The translations under genes were made by a program, and so were the position numbers. The notes beneath the pieces are model-generated. The model searched no databases. It was not told the DNA's origin and saw only the letters and a list, made by a program, of their open reading frames with translations. This document shows positions 7,497 to 59,467 of a stretch of 64,000 nucleotides of DNA, in pieces (the stretch's first letter is position 1; the number at the start of each line of letters is the position of its first letter). This DNA comes from a virus (taxonomy: Duplodnaviria; Heunggongvirae; Uroviricota; Caudoviricetes), in IMG/VR virus record IMGVR_UViG_3300008107_000002; one strand, 5' to 3'.

Positions 7497-7709
7497 ATGA
7501 CTTTCGCTGAAATTGACCAGTTAGCGGAAAAAATGGAAAAAGAGATAAAAGCCTTTAAGTCAGAATTGTTTAAATTATGTTGGTTTATGAGGGGAGGTCT
7601 GACTATAGAGCAGGCCTATGATACTGATTTTCAAGATCGAGAAACTATAGTAGAACTTATAAAAGAGAATTTAGACACTACTAAAAAGAGTGGTCTGCCA
7701 TTCTTTTAA
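7497..7709 (+). CDS. Small tail/baseplate assembly protein (gp51-like or frameshift T segment)
   Basis: 70-aa ORF in the -1 frame of the upstream gene; CWFMRGG motif. Confidence 0.65.
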   Translation: MTFAEIDQLAEKMEKEIKAFKSELFKLCWFMRGGLTIEQAYDTDFQDRETIVELIKENLDTTKKSGLPFF

Positions 7710-8680
7710 AGTTTCATATTTAAAAAACGACTATACTCTATACTTTCAGTAACCCCCGGTTGAGGAGGCGCTACCGGAGCAGCCTGTTGTGCAACTGCTT
7801 TTTGAGGCAGTGCAGAATTTAATGTTTCTATTGCTTTACGTAGTTTTCTAGTAACTTGGCCACCGTTATCTAAATATTCTTGCCACTGTGCTAAAAGTTT
7901 ACCTGGATTGTTAAATGGATTATCTGTAGCTACTGGTGACGCAGGTTCTGCCGCAGTAGATTGTGATCGTCCTAAAGAAACACCACTGCCTCCACGAGAA
8001 GGGAGACTACGACCTCTCTGTGCCGCAACAATAGCAGAATAATTCTTTTCTACGGCTGTTTTAATAATAGTATCTATTTGTGAGTTATTAAGAGTAGCGG
8101 CTCCTTCTACATCTTCTCGAACTGTAGCAAATTTTGGAGAACCGTCTGGATTCTTTCCTACTAGTTTTTGTACTGGAACACCCACTCTTGAAGTTTTAAA
8201 TCCTGTTCCAGTTTTACCTGCTATGCCTGCACCACCTTTTAATCTGCCCTTTAATTCAGCGGCTTTTTTTGGGTCAATTTTAGTTGGAGTAGTCGGAGTA
8301 CTTGTCGGTGCTGCCGGAGTAGCTGTTGGTGTAGAACTTGGTGCGGTTGCTGTAGTTGCAGGAGATGCTGATTGAGCAGGTGCTGTAGTAGGATCAGTAA
8401 TACTATCTAAATCTTGTAATCCGTGACTACCAAGAAAATCTATGAGACTAGAGTATGTTGCATTATTTCCGCCACCTACAGTCTTCATGTATTCAGCTTT
8501 GAGATTTGCAACAATTTTAGACGAATGTTCTTCACCTTGCCTACTAGATTGACTAGCTTTAAACCCACTTACTGCACCTCGAACTCCGTTGTCCATAGCA
8601 CCTTTAAAGCCTGCCTTAATGTCTTTAAAGATACCTAACTCATCAAGTTGTTCTTCATTTAAAACATCGTTATATCTCAT
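7706..8680 (-). CDS. Late hypothetical protein, probable internal head protein with Pro/Thr/Ala linker
   Basis: Perfect TATAAATA upstream; N-terminal LNEEQLDE and internal LxE-type motifs; low-complexity PATT segment. Confidence 0.6.
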   Translation of the reverse strand: MRYNDVLNEEQLDELGIFKDIKAGFKGAMDNGVRGAVSGFKASQSSRQGEEHSSKIVANLKAEYMKTVGGGNNATYSSLIDFLGSHGLQDLDSITDPTTAPAQSASPATTATAPSSTPTATPAAPTSTPTTPTKIDPKKAAELKGRLKGGAGIAGKTGTGFKTSRVGVPVQKLVGKNPDGSPKFATVREDVEGAATLNNSQIDTIIKTAVEKNYSAIVAAQRGRSLPSRGGSGVSLGRSQSTAAEPASPVATDNPFNNPGKLLAQWQEYLDNGGQVTRKLRKAIETLNSALPQKAVAQQAAPVAPPQPGVTESIEYSRFLNMKL

Positions 8681-8702
8681 GATAGTTCCTAAAATTGTGT
8701 TG

Positions 8703-8710
8703 TATTTATA
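8703..8710 (-). promoter_or_regulatory. T4 late promoter TATAAATA (perfect)
   Basis: Plus-strand tatttata, 22 nt upstream of the ATG at 8680. Confidence 0.8.
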
Positions 8711-8753
8711 GTGAGCAGTAGCTCACTTGCTTCATCGCTTACGCTCGAAGCAA
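8710..8753 (-). terminator. Tandem hairpins at the 3' end of the nuclease/ncRNA transcript (terminator or processing signal)
   Basis: AGTGAGC-tact-GCTCACT (8710-8727) and TTGCTTC...GTAA...GAAGCAA (8727-8753). No clear U tract, so not a canonical intrinsic terminator. Confidence 0.45.
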
Positions 8754-8789
8754 TTTTTTATTATGATTAATGCGAAGCATTTTAATATT

Positions 8790-9150
8790 ATCCAGATCGT
8801 TCAGTCACACTTTGCCCAGAGAGGGCAAAGTAAAACAACATTATCCGAGTCGAACATGTGTCACCTAGCGTTAGAGCATTACAGTGGCGGTTGGCCGGTA
8901 CCACGAGCTCAGTCTTATTCCAGCGGCGGTAAGCAAATATACGCTAACATACTTACTTACGTGGGGTGTCTCTATCCCCTCATTTTACCTATTCATCTAT
9001 CTTCAAACAACTAAATCGCAGGTTTTATTAGCAATCTTCATCCTTTCGGGTAGTAGTTGAGTACTCTTAACGGCGAGAGATTTCCATCCCTGTGATCCGA
9101 GATCCAGGTTTAGGGCACCAGAAATTAGCAGGTGCGAGCTTAATACCGTA
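8790..9150 (-). ncRNA. Candidate large structured ncRNA (about 360-450 nt), family unassigned
   Basis: Only long intergenic region; about 45% GC over 8821-9120 by my count; at least 8 stems including a 13-bp and a perfect 9-bp helix, a three-way junction and a candidate pseudoknot. Confidence 0.6.
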
Positions 9151-9159
9151 TAATGAGCC

Positions 9160-9588
9160 TTAAGATTTTTTAATTATATGTGAGCCATGTACACGAACAG
9201 ATATCTGTCCGTTATAATATTCATTTGATTCTAATACTTTGCGGTCGAATTGTTCACGGGCCTCAATGTAAGATGTTTCTGCTTTACTTTTACAGTAGTG
9301 TAATATTTCTCTTGTGAAGTTTTCTTTGCCGTATAACTCAACGTCTTTGTTAAGTTCTATATTTGAGCCATAATAATCTTGCCAGTCGCTTTCTATTTTG
9401 CTTCTGATCTTCTTTTTCTTCTTGGTGCCGTTCTTTAACTTTACAGTCTTGTAGGTCGTTTTACTAAACTTCGCTAATTTTTTGCCAACATAAAGCCTGC
9501 CAGAAGTATTACATGAGATAAGATATACAAATCCCACGCAATCTTCAGGTAATTCTGTAACTATAGAACCTTTATAGTACCAAGTCAT
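9160..9588 (-). CDS. Stand-alone GIY-YIG family endonuclease
   Basis: GFVYLI...LYVGKK (GIY/YIG), later YIEAREQF and YYNG; 142 aa, no C-terminal DNA-binding repeats. Confidence 0.8.
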   Translation of the reverse strand: MTWYYKGSIVTELPEDCVGFVYLISCNTSGRLYVGKKLAKFSKTTYKTVKLKNGTKKKKKIRSKIESDWQDYYGSNIELNKDVELYGKENFTREILHYCKSKAETSYIEAREQFDRKVLESNEYYNGQISVRVHGSHIIKKS

Positions 9589-9591
9589 TGG

Positions 9592-9789
9592 TTACTTTGC
9601 CGTCTTGGCTTCCTTGCGAGCATTTTTCTCAGCAGTAATTTCGTTGCGGCGTGCCTTAACTAATTTGCCAACTTCACCTAACGCCTTACGAGCACGAGTT
9701 CCTGCGGCGCTGTTACCTGCTGAAAACTTTGCATCTTCTGCTAGGAATGCTTCAAATTCTGCTTTAATCTGTTCAACTGTTGTTGTCAT
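9592..9789 (-). CDS. Histone H1-like protein (Hc1 family)
   Basis: GNSAAGTRARKAL motif typical of Hc1-like nucleoid proteins; basic tail. Confidence 0.8.
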   Translation of the reverse strand: MTTTVEQIKAEFEAFLAEDAKFSAGNSAAGTRARKALGEVGKLVKARRNEITAEKNARKEAKTAK

Positions 9790-48008: not shown

Positions 48009-49265
48009 TTATTTATAATGTGCGGTCTGGCCGAATGGTGCAATTATGGCGTCATTTCCGTGGACAATAAACAGGGTATCGCAGTAATCTTCGTCACCCC
48101 AACTACCACAAGGATACCCGTCGGTGAACATAATAAAGCGTTTTGGTTCAATATTTTGCTCTTTCATAAAATCCCAATTAGCTTCAAATGCGGTACCTCC
48201 GCCACCTTTGCATTTATATTCCATAATTTCGTCAGCAGTGTCGCCTGTAAATTGTTTATATCCGTATACTTCTGTGTCAAAGCACCACAAGTCCAATTTA
48301 AAGTCGACATATTCGTCCATGATGCCCTTAACTTCACTTAAAAAGTCTTTAGCCTGTTCGTTTGAAATACTGCCCGACATATCAATTGCAACTGAAACAT
48401 CGATAGTTTCTTCATTCATCATGCCAGGCAAGATAGCACCGCAGTGTTGGCTTTTACGATTAGGACGACTAAAGCTAAAGTTACTCTTGAGAATACTTTG
48501 GATATTCATACGTAACATTTCGCGCCAGTCCATTTTAGGTTCAGTAAAATCAGAGATCATACGAGCCACTCCGGCAGGTACTCGTCCTGCGCCAGCGGCA
48601 TGTGCAGCCGCAACCATTGCCTCTTTAATCTCGTCTCTAATTTTTTTCTTTTCTTCGGCAGTTAGACGCGGCGGCCCTTTGCCTTCTTTATCCCCATCCC
48701 CATCGTCGTCACCTTCACCTTCGCCCTCGCCATCTAGGTGCTCGTCAAGTAATTCTCCTAACGTTGAGATATCAATTTTTTCAGCTTTATCGTACAAGTC
48801 CTGATAGATTTGTTCGTAACTCATACCACGGTATTTGTTATCCTGAAAGATCTTAATCCAACTTGGTACGTCACCAATTTTCTCATCTTTAAGAATTTGA
48901 TTGGTAGCAAAGTCGGCGGCAATATTAGACAATGAGGGATCTCGGTCTTCTCGACGACCCATATGATCAAACACATTATGCAGAACTTCGTGTGCAAATC
49001 CAAATTCTGCTTCTTTAGGTTTGAGTTTGTCAACAAACTCGTTATTGTAGTAGAAGTTCCTACCGTCAGTGGCCAGTGTAGCACACCAGTCATCTGCTTC
49101 GACCATTTTAAGACGTGTTGCTAGATTACCAAAAAATGGATGGCGCAACAACAAACCGACTCTAGCTGTAATTAGTTTATCAAGAATTTTATTTTTATCA
49201 GCCGCCGAGTATTGTTTTGTATTTTTTGGTTTACGAATTTTTTCTGTTTTCATTACCGAAGTCAT
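48009..49265 (-). CDS. VWA-domain protein with N-terminal HExxH metallopeptidase-like domain
   Basis: AHEVLH, MIDAS DMSGS, GGGTAF and FTDG motifs. Confidence 0.88.
   Translation of the reverse strand: MTSVMKTEKIRKPKNTKQYSAADKNKILDKLITARVGLLLRHPFFGNLATRLKMVEADDWCATLATDGRNFYYNNEFVDKLKPKEAEFGFAHEVLHNVFDHMGRREDRDPSLSNIAADFATNQILKDEKIGDVPSWIKIFQDNKYRGMSYEQIYQDLYDKAEKIDISTLGELLDEHLDGEGEGEGDDDGDGDKEGKGPPRLTAEEKKKIRDEIKEAMVAAAHAAGAGRVPAGVARMISDFTEPKMDWREMLRMNIQSILKSNFSFSRPNRKSQHCGAILPGMMNEETIDVSVAIDMSGSISNEQAKDFLSEVKGIMDEYVDFKLDLWCFDTEVYGYKQFTGDTADEIMEYKCKGGGGTAFEANWDFMKEQNIEPKRFIMFTDGYPCGSWGDEDYCDTLFIVHGNDAIIAPFGQTAHYK
48010..48017 (-). promoter_or_regulatory. T4 late promoter TATAAATA (perfect), overlapping the VWA stop codon
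   Basis: Plus-strand tatttata. Confidence 0.7.
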
Positions 49266-59238: not shown

Positions 59239-59467
59239 TGTTTCTATTCTCGTGTCTTGGTTTGTTGCCTAAATACGGCTTGCGCTCACCGTTCCATGCA
59301 GGACGAGAGAAATATTTATATTCCTGAGATTTATAAAGATCAGCAGGATTATAAGGAAGCAGATTAAATCTGCAATGATCTAACCAGGCGTCGAGATCGT
59401 CGAACACTTTCTCGACTTCGGGTTTCATGCGGAGAGTTTTTTGAATATAGGCAGGGATATTTGCCAT
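59216..59467 (-). CDS. Hypothetical protein
   Basis: Likely start MANIPAY at 59467, just after the QueD-like stop. Confidence 0.65.
   Translation of the reverse strand: MANIPAYIQKTLRMKPEVEKVFDDLDAWLDHCRFNLLPYNPADLYKSQEYKYFSRPAWNGERKPYLGNKPRHENRNNGERFSR

What the first reader, a model, noticed from the sequence alone, without database searches (positions are those of the whole stretch)
8790..9159. Unassigned ~400-nt highly structured RNA, the only large non-coding element in 64 kb
Seen on the minus strand: GCACC/GGTGC (9115-9135); CCTG-GATC/GATC-A-CAGG (9089-9108); a three-way junction CAACTA/TAGTTG (9054-9059 with 9008-9013) enclosing CC-GAAA-GG and GATTGC/GCGATT; GGGG/CCCC (8963-8979); a 13-bp contiguous helix (8929-8960); GTGG..CGG-ccaa-CCG-CCAC (8884-8904); a perfect 9-bp ACTTTGCCC/GGGCAAAGT (8809-8831); a T-loop-like GTTCGACTC; and GGATAAT twice. 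GC is about 45% against about 30-35% in the flanks. It does not match tRNA, tmRNA, RNase P, group I/II or hammerhead consensus by eye. Inference: a novel large phage ncRNA, though a single-stranded DNA structure (origin or packaging signal) is possible.
Basis: partly seen in the sequence, partly recalled or inferred. Interest (0 to 1): 0.8.

Follow-up and report, generated by a model that had tools for sequence, protein, structure and literature searches.

The report
Extended Polynucleobacter-1 phage RNA, twin boxes
The gene-free stretch behind a small nuclease gene of this uncultured freshwater T4-like phage encodes a real, about 440-base, triply knotted non-coding RNA; its first third is the catalogued but unexplained Polynucleobacter-1 motif, and the uncatalogued rest carries the same 7-letter word twice, read by something still unknown.

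Summary
Window 9151-8711 (minus strand) is a conserved structured RNA.

- **Known part:** Rfam RF01718 (Polynucleobacter-1) matches 9140-9005 at 115.6 bits against a cut-off of 37. This is only the 5' third.
- **Uncatalogued part:** the other ~300 nt travel with the 5' third in every full-length relative found (about 95 viral and metagenome loci).
- **Structure:** on 49 non-redundant copies, a curated fold of 79 pairs (17 helices, three pseudoknots) is 95% paired, against 34-41% in slid controls. 52 pairs show compensatory changes, against 16-19.
- **Twin boxes:** two 7-nt boxes (GGAUAAU, 8846-8840 and 8793-8787) flank hairpin P9. They are identical in 66 of 66 unique phage copies, although the word changed at least 15 times on the family tree.
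- **Cellular relatives:** copies in Polynucleobacter genomic islands keep the twin-box layout with quite different words. They sit between a DUF6641 gene and a short tyrosine recombinase instead of behind the GIY-YIG gene.
- **Reader of the boxes:** no complementary partner was found in cis.
- **GIY-YIG gene:** it occurs widely without the RNA, so it probably does not depend on the RNA as a guide.

This scan had already found the same RNA family on other DNA at least ten times. I class it as a new variant of a known kind.

The parts
8711..9151 (-). Full-length structured RNA (extended Polynucleobacter-1 family), about 440 nt
   Evidence: An nhmmer profile of 9152-8785 finds full-length copies in about 95 loci. 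The 3' hairpins X and Y are conserved.
9005..9140 (-). 5' domain, matching Rfam RF01718 Polynucleobacter-1 (helices P1, P2, P3 and the P4 three-way junction)
   Evidence: cmscan gives 115.6 bits against a gathering score of 37, E = 2e-24, model positions 1-141 of 141.
9146..9149 (-). 5' strand of pseudoknot PKa (ACGG). It lies upstream of the Rfam model and pairs with 9073-9070 in the loop of P3.
   Evidence: Alignment columns 11-14 pair with 99-102. Pair types are GC 23, AU 22 and UA 2, and 99% of cells are paired.
9070..9073 (-). 3' strand of PKa (CCGU), inside the P3 hairpin loop
8929..8960 (-). P6 long hairpin. Its loop, 8947-8942, forms pseudoknot PKb with 8870-8865.
   Evidence: 11 of the 12 P6 pairs and all 6 PKb pairs show compensatory changes. 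PKb is 97.9% paired.
8865..8870 (-). 3' strand of PKb (CGCUAG)
   Evidence: Columns 359-365 pair with 243-248.
8920..8924 (-). 5' strand of pseudoknot PKc. It pairs with 8894-8890, the loop of P8.
   Evidence: Columns 267-271 pair with 310-314. Pair types include UA 33 / CG 16 and GC 37 / AU 10, and 95.9% of cells are paired.
8874..8910 (-). P7 (8910-8907 with 8877-8874), enclosing P8 (8903-8885) and the PKc loop (8894-8890)
   Evidence: P7 pair types are GC 26, CG 13 and UA 6. P8 shows AU 30 and UA 19.
8840..8846 (-). Box A (GGAUAAU), preceded by the conserved ACUC
   Evidence: Identical to box B in 66 of 66 unique phage copies. Positions 1, 2, 5 and 7 vary.
8809..8831 (-). P9 hairpin between the two boxes
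   Evidence: 9 bp in the window. 4 pairs show compensatory changes.
8787..8793 (-). Box B (GGAUAAU), preceded by the conserved AUCU
8727..8753 (-). Hairpin X: an outer stem around an inner GCG-UAA-GC hairpin
   Evidence: Found in 73 of 73 unique tails with 38 different stem words. Also present in the cellular copies.
8711..8726 (-). Hairpin Y, the likely 3' end of the RNA
   Evidence: Found in 63 of 73 unique tails with 27 different stem words.
8703..8710 (-). TATAAATA, the T4-type late-promoter consensus, directly after hairpin Y and 23 nt before the downstream gene's start at 8680
   Evidence: One of only 3 copies in the window, all on the minus strand; about 6-7 per strand are expected by base composition. 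The same word sits at this place in many relatives. That it is a late promoter rests on established T4 biology.
9160..9588 (-). Upstream gene: a 142-aa GIY-YIG nuclease consisting of the catalytic domain only (SegE-like)
   Evidence: Pfam PF19835, E = 1e-31. It ends 7-51 nt before the RNA in most loci that have enough flank to judge.
7706..8680 (-). Downstream gene, 324 aa, with no family match. It has its own late promoter, so it is probably not regulated through read-through from the RNA.

Best explanation
**Shown.** Window 9151-8711 (minus strand) encodes a roughly 440-nt non-coding RNA of an uncultured freshwater T4-like phage.
- It is the full-length form of the Rfam family Polynucleobacter-1. 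The catalogued 141-nt model covers only its 5' domain.
- The RNA has 17 helices, including three pseudoknots.
- Its 3' part has two single-stranded 7-nt boxes of identical sequence, one on each side of hairpin P9. They follow the conserved words ACUC and AUCU.

**Inferred (odds about 0.4 for this part).**
- The RNA acts in trans as a folded scaffold for mobile elements (phages and genomic islands).
- It shows the same short, freely re-programmable word twice to one external reader.
It could be two copies of a target, or two target molecules.
- The knotted core binds a conserved cellular or element-encoded protein.
- The RNA is probably made as the 3' end of the gp47-gp46-...-GIY-YIG transcript and ends at hairpin Y. 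The next gene has its own late promoter.
For: **Identity**
- RF01718 matches at 115.6 bits over the whole model.
- About 95 loci carry the full 365-nt core whenever the contig allows it.

**Fold**
- 95.0% of cells are paired, against 34-41% for slid structures.
- 52 pairs have compensatory changes, against 16-19 for slid structures. 0 of 500 shuffles reach any measure.
- The pseudoknots PKa, PKb and PKc have 3, 6 and 3 covarying pairs.
- Frequent switches between A-U/U-A and G-U/U-G pairs make the fold specific to this strand.

**Boxes**
- They are identical in 66 of 66 unique phage copies.
- On a tree built without the box columns, the word changes at least 15 times. By position: position 1 changes 9 times, position 2 once, position 5 six times, position 7 five times. 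Both boxes always change together.
- Distant copies keep the layout with unrelated words: AGCGAAAG, AUCAAAAG, AGAGAAAG, AUCGAAAU, AUGAAAG and GCAAAU in Polynucleobacter islands; AGAUGAAGU, GUGUCAAGU and ACAUGAA in divergent phage forms.
- No column within -520 to +160 covaries with the boxes in Watson-Crick fashion.

**Acting in trans rather than as a leader**
- A TATAAATA late promoter lies between the RNA and the next gene.
- There is no sigma-70-like promoter just upstream and no intrinsic terminator.

**Independence from one protein partner**
- Cellular copies lack the GIY-YIG gene.
- The GIY-YIG gene occurs without the RNA in at least 6 loci inspected, out of 26 where the profile found no RNA right after the gene (74 sampled), and in cultured phages such as Melnitz.
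Against: - No transcript data exist. The ends of the RNA are inferred from conservation only.
- No complementary target was found within 10 kb in the islands. The box and its complement are not enriched in the 64-kb window, and no extra flank-plus-box sites exist in three complete genomes.
- A dimeric protein, or an endoribonuclease that cuts at both boxes, would explain identical boxes equally well.
- Identity is not absolute in cellular copies. L361/L363 differ at the first two of 8 positions, and L335/L345 differ at positions 1 and 8.
- The 3' part alone folds no better than shuffled sequence.
Confidence: 0.45

Rival explanations
1. The twin boxes are two identical binding or cutting sites for a protein: a dimeric RNA-binding protein, or a sequence-specific endoribonuclease. 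Cutting at both would release the P9 unit of about 55 nt, much as type III antitoxin RNAs are cut out of repeats. The RNA would then be a decoy, sponge or precursor used by mobile elements against a host system.
For: - The two modules are structural repeats: GUGAC...ACUC-box and GUGAC...AUCU-box in phages, and GUGUAG...AACUC-box and GUGUAG...AAUCU-box in cells.
- No nucleic-acid partner was found.
- The boxes are A-rich, as the recognition sites of known type III toxins are (this comparison rests on my own knowledge).
- The RNA occurs only in mobile elements, and the box word evolves fast.
Against: - At least 15 concerted word changes among close relatives would each need a matching change in protein specificity.
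- No protein is shared between the phage and island settings.
- There are no tandem repeats and no adjacent toxin gene.
Confidence: 0.22
2. The RNA is a programmable guide or bridge for DNA-cutting enzymes of mobile elements that lack a DNA-binding domain of their own: the 142-aa GIY-YIG nuclease in phages, and the roughly 195-aa tyrosine recombinase in islands. The two identical words would hold two DNA sites that share the same core, as strand exchange by tyrosine recombinases requires.
For: - The short recombinase lies downstream on the same strand in 18 of 18 island loci, and DUF6641 lies upstream in all of them.
- The GIY-YIG gene ends 7-51 nt before the RNA in most phage loci.
- Both enzymes consist of the catalytic domain only.
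- The box word is arbitrary but matched between the two copies.
- There is a precedent: HEARO and bridge RNAs were first seen as orphan ornate RNAs next to nuclease or recombinase genes (my own knowledge).
Against: - The GIY-YIG ortholog is in 451 cultured phage records. At least one has no RF01718 match: Melnitz, at 52% identity.
- At least 6 close orthologs inspected, at 75-80% identity, are followed directly by a protein gene.
- The RNA exists without a neighbouring GIY-YIG gene in L123/L291, L297, L300 and L082.
- FimB/FimE-size recombinases work without RNA (established knowledge).
- No box or complement sits at island ends or elsewhere with the constant flanks.
Confidence: 0.07
3. The RNA acts in cis. 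It could be a 3'-end structure that protects or processes the gp47-gp46-GIY-YIG message, or a leader or riboswitch for the downstream gene, as the 2010 catalogue guessed.
For: - The RNA starts about 10 nt after the stop codon of the GIY-YIG gene and has no promoter of its own.
- Weinberg 2010 marked the motif as possibly cis-regulatory.
- In islands, it lies upstream of the cargo and recombinase genes on the same strand.
Against: - A late promoter lies between the RNA and the next phage gene.
- No terminator or anti-terminator alternative was found.
- A 440-nt RNA with three pseudoknots, invariant single-stranded stretches and matched hypervariable boxes is far more than a stabiliser needs.
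- The neighbouring genes differ completely between phages and islands.
Confidence: 0.15
4. The conserved fold belongs to single-stranded DNA (a replication origin, packaging signal or recombination site) rather than to RNA. The boxes would then be DNA repeats such as recombinase core sites or iterons.
For: - Covariation cannot tell RNA from DNA of the same sense.
- The boxes are direct repeats flanking a hairpin.
- A recombinase gene lies nearby in the islands.
Against: - The same fold is kept in lytic T4-like phages and in chromosomal islands, which differ in replication and packaging.
- G-U type pairs are used heavily, and there are stable RNA-type loops such as UUCG and GNRA.
- Repeats 53-72 nt apart are too close for recombination between them.
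- No further sites exist in the genomes.
Confidence: 0.04

Closest known systems
Polynucleobacter-1 RNA motif (Rfam RF01718; Weinberg et al. 2010, Genome Biol 11:R31, PMC2864571)
   Same: Window 9140-9005 matches the whole 141-position model at 115.6 bits, with the same helices P1-P4. The habitat is also the same: fresh water and Burkholderiales. As the 2010 supplement states, the motif lies downstream of a gene family with a cyanophage relative.
   Different: - The catalogued motif is only the 5' third of the RNA.
- Not in the model or the paper: the 5' pseudoknot strand upstream of the model, about 300 further nucleotides with two more pseudoknots, the twin boxes, and hairpins X and Y.
- The paper found no copy in a purified phage. 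Here the carrier is clearly a T4-like phage (gp46/gp47, baseplate genes, late promoter).
Large ornate orphan RNAs of phages and mobile elements (GOLLD, ROOL, HEARO/omega RNA of IscB)
   Same: These are also several hundred nucleotides long and multi-domain, with pseudoknots, and are carried by phages or mobile elements. They were found by comparative genomics before any function was known. HEARO sits next to a nuclease gene.
   Different: There is no Rfam match to any of them, even at E = 10. None is known to carry two matched hypervariable boxes. The neighbouring GIY-YIG gene is widespread without the RNA.
IS110-family bridge RNA (two programmable loops that specify target and donor DNA for a recombinase)
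   Same: It is a structured RNA with two short re-programmable single-stranded segments, encoded next to a recombinase gene (as in the island copies here).
   Different: - Bridge RNAs are about 150-250 nt, and their two loops carry different guides.
- They serve a DEDD-type IS110 recombinase.
- Here the two words are identical, and the neighbour is a short tyrosine recombinase (islands) or a GIY-YIG nuclease (phages).
- No target or donor match was found.
Type III toxin-antitoxin RNAs (ToxI-like repeats cut out by their toxin)
   Same: They have repeated identical short sites in a pseudoknotted RNA, have a role in phage-host conflict, and phages carry look-alikes.
   Different: The RNA here is not a tandem array: only 7 nt plus a loosely similar flank are repeated. 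No toxin gene is adjacent, and the RNA is much larger.

Membership tests
Rfam RF01718 Polynucleobacter-1 | Covariance-model score at or above the curated gathering score (37 bits) | tested here: met
   115.6 bits, E = 2.2e-24
Rfam RF01718 Polynucleobacter-1 | Full model covered, with its helices (two hairpins, a third hairpin, a three-way junction) | tested here: met
   Model positions 1-141 of 141 are matched. Each helix has compensatory changes in 49 relatives.
Rfam RF01718 Polynucleobacter-1 | Setting described in 2010: downstream of a GOS11034 / PSSM2_218-like gene; fresh water or Burkholderiales | tested here: inconclusive
   The upstream GIY-YIG gene has orthologs in 397 cyanophage records (Synechococcus 331, Cyanophage 44, Prochlorococcus 22), and the relatives come from freshwater metagenomes. 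PSSM2_218 itself was not compared.
Group I / group II introns, RNase P, tmRNA, tRNA, hammerhead | Match to the family's covariance model or detection by ARAGORN | tested here: not met
   No match even at E = 10 in 8600-9250. ARAGORN finds no gene in the window.
GOLLD, ROOL, HEARO, OLE and other large catalogued RNAs | Match to the Rfam model | tested here: not met
   Only RF01718 passes. The weak extra hits are snoZ7, RAGATH-12 and Atu_C9, all at E > 6.
IS110 bridge RNA | Adjacent IS110 (DEDD) recombinase, and two loops with different guides that match target and donor DNA | tested here: not met
   The neighbours are a GIY-YIG nuclease or a Phage_integrase-family enzyme. The two words are identical. 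No matching DNA was found within 10 kb or genome-wide with the flanks.
Riboswitch / cis-regulatory leader | Lies in the 5' untranslated region of the regulated gene, with an expression platform (terminator or start-site sequestering helix) | tested here: not met
   A TATAAATA late promoter lies between the RNA and the next gene. No intrinsic terminator was found.
Type III antitoxin RNA | Tandem array of whole repeats next to an endoribonuclease toxin gene | tested here: not met
   Only the 7-nt boxes and short flanks repeat. The neighbouring genes are GIY-YIG, Hc1-like and gp46/47.

The most novel reading that the evidence does not exclude
The twin-box RNA is a programmable guide for mobile-element DNA enzymes that lack their own DNA-binding domain: a short tyrosine recombinase in Polynucleobacter islands, and the GIY-YIG nuclease in T4-like phages. 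Its two identical words would pair with the shared core of two DNA partners. That would make it a second, independent kind of bridge-like RNA.
Probability: 0.07. Interest if true: 0.95.

Novelty: new variant of a known kind. Interest (0 to 1): 0.62.

Why it matters
- **Correction to the catalogue.** Polynucleobacter-1 has been an orphan motif since 2010, listed as a 141-nt candidate leader. This window and its roughly 95 relatives show it is the front end of a roughly 440-nt, triply knotted RNA carried by T4-like phages and by genomic islands of abundant freshwater bacteria.
- **An unusual signal.** Two short boxes are kept identical to each other while their sequence is rewritten again and again. 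This is the signature of a re-programmable recognition code. The same kind of signal preceded the discovery of guide functions for other orphan RNAs.
- **Even the modest reading is useful.** A decoy or scaffold in phage-host conflict would still add a new large RNA class to phage biology.
- **Testable systems exist.** Polynucleobacter strains that carry the island copy can be cultured.

Tried and rejected
- **Cis partner for the boxes.** Mutual information of box columns against all columns of the RNA and of a -520 to +160 alignment of 66 loci gave no Watson-Crick partner. The only strong signal, for box position 2, comes from a single clade.
- **Box or complement in the 64-kb window.** Counts are 5 and 7 against 6.4 and 7.3 expected, with none in a telling place.
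- **Box or complement within 10 kb in 18 island loci.** No consistent site was found. The recurring -56 and +100 hits are constant parts of the RNA that happen to resemble the commonest word.
- **Extra genomic sites with flank plus box.** None in G287 and G264, and near chance in G177.
- **tRNA link.** The neighbouring tRNA-Phe T-loop matches the L273 box complement in 6 nt, and tRNA-Met matches the L298 box in only 4 nt. I judged this chance.
- **Anticodon loops.** The box complements do not fit anticodon-loop rules; position 37 would be a pyrimidine.
- **Translational bypass as in T4 gene 60.** GGA followed by a stop, a hairpin, then a matching GGA is a striking look-alike. I rejected it because no reading frame enters box A, the landing site is also followed by a stop, and cellular boxes carry no stops.
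- **Homology of DUF6641 and the GIY-YIG protein.** hhalign gives probability 0.1%.
- **DUF6641 or recombinase genes in the phage window.** None.
- **Long-range pairing of the conserved CGGUA upstream with UACCG at about 8895.** No covariation. The real partner is CCGU at 9073-9070.
- **GUUC/GAAC pairing between the two box modules.** It holds in some sequences only.
- **Nucleotide search of cultured phages.** No match.
- **Nearest held virus record, G001.** It is a 14-kb fragment without the RNA.
- **RNAalifold on the 3' tail.** It failed because loop lengths differ. It was replaced by a per-sequence hairpin check.
- **PDB sequence search with the GIY-YIG protein.** Nothing significant.

Full report
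**What is there.** The 479-bp stretch between the stop codon of a 142-aa GIY-YIG gene (9160-9588, minus strand) and the start of a 324-aa gene (7706-8680, minus strand) holds no credible gene.
- The window is from a T4-like phage. It carries gp46/gp47-like SbcCD genes, a T4 baseplate hub, an Hc1-like gene, and T4-type late-promoter words.
- An Rfam scan of all 64 kb gives one hit: RF01718, Polynucleobacter-1, at 9140-9005 (minus strand). It scores 115.6 bits against a cut-off of 37 and covers the full model.
- A permissive scan of the region adds nothing credible.
- ARAGORN finds no tRNA or tmRNA.

**The element is larger than the catalogued motif.**
- Pattern scans of IMG/VR, JGI metagenomes and GTDB genomes were filtered with an nhmmer profile. 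About 95 loci carry the whole 365-nt core (window 9151-8785) whenever the contig is long enough.
- Two further hairpins follow box B, and their stems change in step: X (8753-8727) and Y (8726-8711). A per-sequence check finds X in 73 of 73 unique tails with 38 different stem words, and Y in 63 of 73 with 27 different stem words.
- The RNA therefore spans about 9151-8711, roughly 440 nt.

**The fold.** I aligned 49 copies that are under 96% identical to each other and 60-96% identical to the window. From RNAalifold and a mutual-information scan I derived 79 pairs in 17 helices.

| Measure | Curated structure | Partners slid by 1-3 columns |
|---|---|---|
| Cells paired | 95.0% | 34-41% |
| Pairs with compensatory change | 52 | 16-19 |
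| Shuffles (of 500) reaching any measure | 0 | - |

Three pseudoknots stand out:
- **PKa:** ACGG at 9149-9146, upstream of the Rfam model, pairs with the loop of P3 at 9073-9070.
- **PKb:** the loop of the long hairpin P6 (8947-8942) pairs with 8870-8865.
- **PKc:** 8924-8920 pairs with the loop of P8 (8894-8890).

Many positions switch between A-U/U-A and G-U/U-G pairs, so the fold belongs to the minus-strand sense. Folding energy alone is modest: z = -2.96 for the whole element and -1.33 for the 3' part.

**The twin boxes.** GGAUAAU occurs at 8846-8840 after ACUC, and again at 8793-8787 after AUCU. The two copies lie on either side of hairpin P9.
- In 66 unique phage copies the two boxes are always identical. 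Positions 1 (G/A), 2 (G/C), 5 (A/G) and 7 (U/A) vary.
- On a maximum-likelihood tree built without the box columns, the word changes at least 15 times. The count is 21 single-position changes, and both boxes always change together.
- No column of the RNA, of the upstream gene, or of the 160 nt downstream covaries with the boxes in Watson-Crick fashion.
- The word and its complement are not enriched in the window.

**A second home for the RNA.** Weak profile hits proved to be full RF01718 members at 78-97 bits in non-phage DNA.
- Searching genomes found the motif in 17 of 151 Polynucleobacter genomes, some with two copies, and in 4 of 151 genomes sampled across the order.
- In 18 of 18 such loci a DUF6641 gene lies divergently about 120 nt upstream. 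A short (188-212 aa) Phage_integrase-family recombinase lies 0.3-1.4 kb downstream on the same strand.
- There is no GIY-YIG gene in these loci. DUF6641 is unrelated to it.
- These copies keep P9, hairpins X and Y, and the twin boxes after AACUC and AAUCU. The words are quite different: AGCGAAAG, GGCGAAAG, AUCAAAAG, AACAAAAG, AGAGAAAG, GGAGAAAG, AUCGAAAU, AUGAAAG and GCAAAU.
- Identity is slightly looser here. L361/L363 differ at the first two of eight positions, and L335/L345 differ at positions 1 and 8.
- Neither the word nor its complement recurs at a consistent place within 10 kb, or genome-wide with the constant flank.

**Is the GIY-YIG nuclease the partner?**
- Seen from the RNA, the gene ends 7-51 nt upstream in most phage loci with enough flank. 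There are five exceptions.
- Seen from the protein, more than 592 viral contigs encode an ortholog. Of the 74 best with room downstream, 48 have the RNA within 120 nt.
- I inspected 11 of the other 26. Four carry divergent twin-box RNAs, with words AGAUGAAGU, GUGUCAAGU and ACAUGAA. Six go straight into a protein gene. One has protein-coding-looking sequence there and only a partial RNA match about 1.2 kb on.
- 451 cultured phage records have the ortholog, mostly cyanophages. The closest, Methylophilales phage Melnitz at 52% identity, has no RF01718 match and only a 148-nt gap after the gene.
- The protein is highly conserved, at 76% mean column identity, and its GIY, YIG, Arg, Glu and Asn motifs are invariant.
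- It is therefore a widespread core-like gene. The link is strong synteny rather than dependence.

**Expression.** No sigma-70-like promoter lies just upstream and no intrinsic terminator follows.
- TATAAATA, the T4 late-promoter consensus, abuts hairpin Y at 8710-8703. It is one of three copies in the window, all on the minus strand, and recurs at this place in relatives.
- I infer that the RNA is the 3' end of the upstream transcript, perhaps processed, and that the next gene is transcribed on its own.

**What is known.**
- The only paper in the library that names the motif is Weinberg et al. 2010. It lists the motif as a likely RNA, possibly cis-regulatory, from Burkholderiales and fresh water.
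- Its supplement says that the 3' half is not always detected, that most copies lie downstream of a gene family with a possible relative in cyanophage P-SSM2, and that no purified phage carried the motif.
- The extension, the pseudoknots and the twin boxes are not described there. No paper mentions DUF6641.

**Earlier notes of this scan.** At least ten notes describe the same family on other DNA: eight in phages and two in islands. I reached the same description independently before reading them. Their view that the RNA is not simply the nuclease's guide agrees with my protein-seeded sample.

**Verdict.**
- It is a real RNA, of a known family in its front third.
- It is a new variant in its full architecture.
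- Its function is open.
- My best reading is a trans-acting scaffold that shows one re-programmable word twice to an external reader, most likely a nucleic acid.

Noticed in passing
L298, L321, L287, L331-L335, L355-L367 (Polynucleobacter and related genomes): There is a conserved three-part module in genomic islands: a divergent DUF6641 gene, the twin-box RNA, a variable slot of 0.3-1.4 kb, then a short (188-212 aa) tyrosine recombinase. Some loci sit a few kb from tRNA-Met or tRNA-Phe genes, and one has a full-size integrase nearby.
   Followed up: partly
L377, L421, L440, L444 (IMG/VR loci found through the GIY-YIG protein): Downstream of GIY-YIG orthologs lie divergent RNAs that the phage sequence profile misses in full or in part. 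They still show twin boxes after ACUC/AUCU-like flanks (AGAUGAAGU, GUGUCAAGU, ACAUGAA). The twin-box 3' domain may therefore be more widespread than the Polynucleobacter-1 front end.
   Followed up: partly
window 9160-9588 (-): The small GIY-YIG protein has orthologs in 451 cultured phage records, mostly T4-like cyanophages. They are often annotated 'NAD synthetase', which looks like a propagated mis-annotation of a GIY-YIG nuclease domain. The protein has an invariant lysine-rich insert (KLKNGTKKKKKIRSK).
   Followed up: partly
window 9592-9789 (-): A 65-aa protein matches the chlamydial histone H1-like Hc1 family (Pfam PF07432, E = 1e-13). It is present in many but not all related phage loci, between gp46 and the GIY-YIG gene.
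   Followed up: no
window 8703-8710, 48010-48017, 59313-59320: TATAAATA occurs only three times in 64 kb, all on the minus strand, against about 6-7 expected per strand. This suggests the word is avoided except where it serves as a late promoter.
   Followed up: no
L355-L367 and L332, L335: Island copies with the commonest word, AGCGAAA(G), mostly have a 0.7-1.0 kb cargo slot before the recombinase. Copies with other words (AGAGAAAG, GGAGAAAG, AACAAAAG, AUGAAAG) mostly have none. This may be shared ancestry only. The same word also resembles constant parts of the RNA: the P8 loop region and hairpin X.
   Followed up: no
G003 (Polynucleobacter MAG): contigs C80 and C51: One metagenome-assembled genome holds both a phage-type copy (a short contig with the GIY-YIG gene) and an island-type copy. 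This fits a Polynucleobacter host for this phage group, or binning of phage DNA together with its host.
   Followed up: no
window 8727-9014 (+) and 8884-9060 (+): Two open frames of 95 and 58 aa on the opposite strand overlap the RNA. They are probably spurious and could be mis-called as genes by automatic annotation.
   Followed up: no
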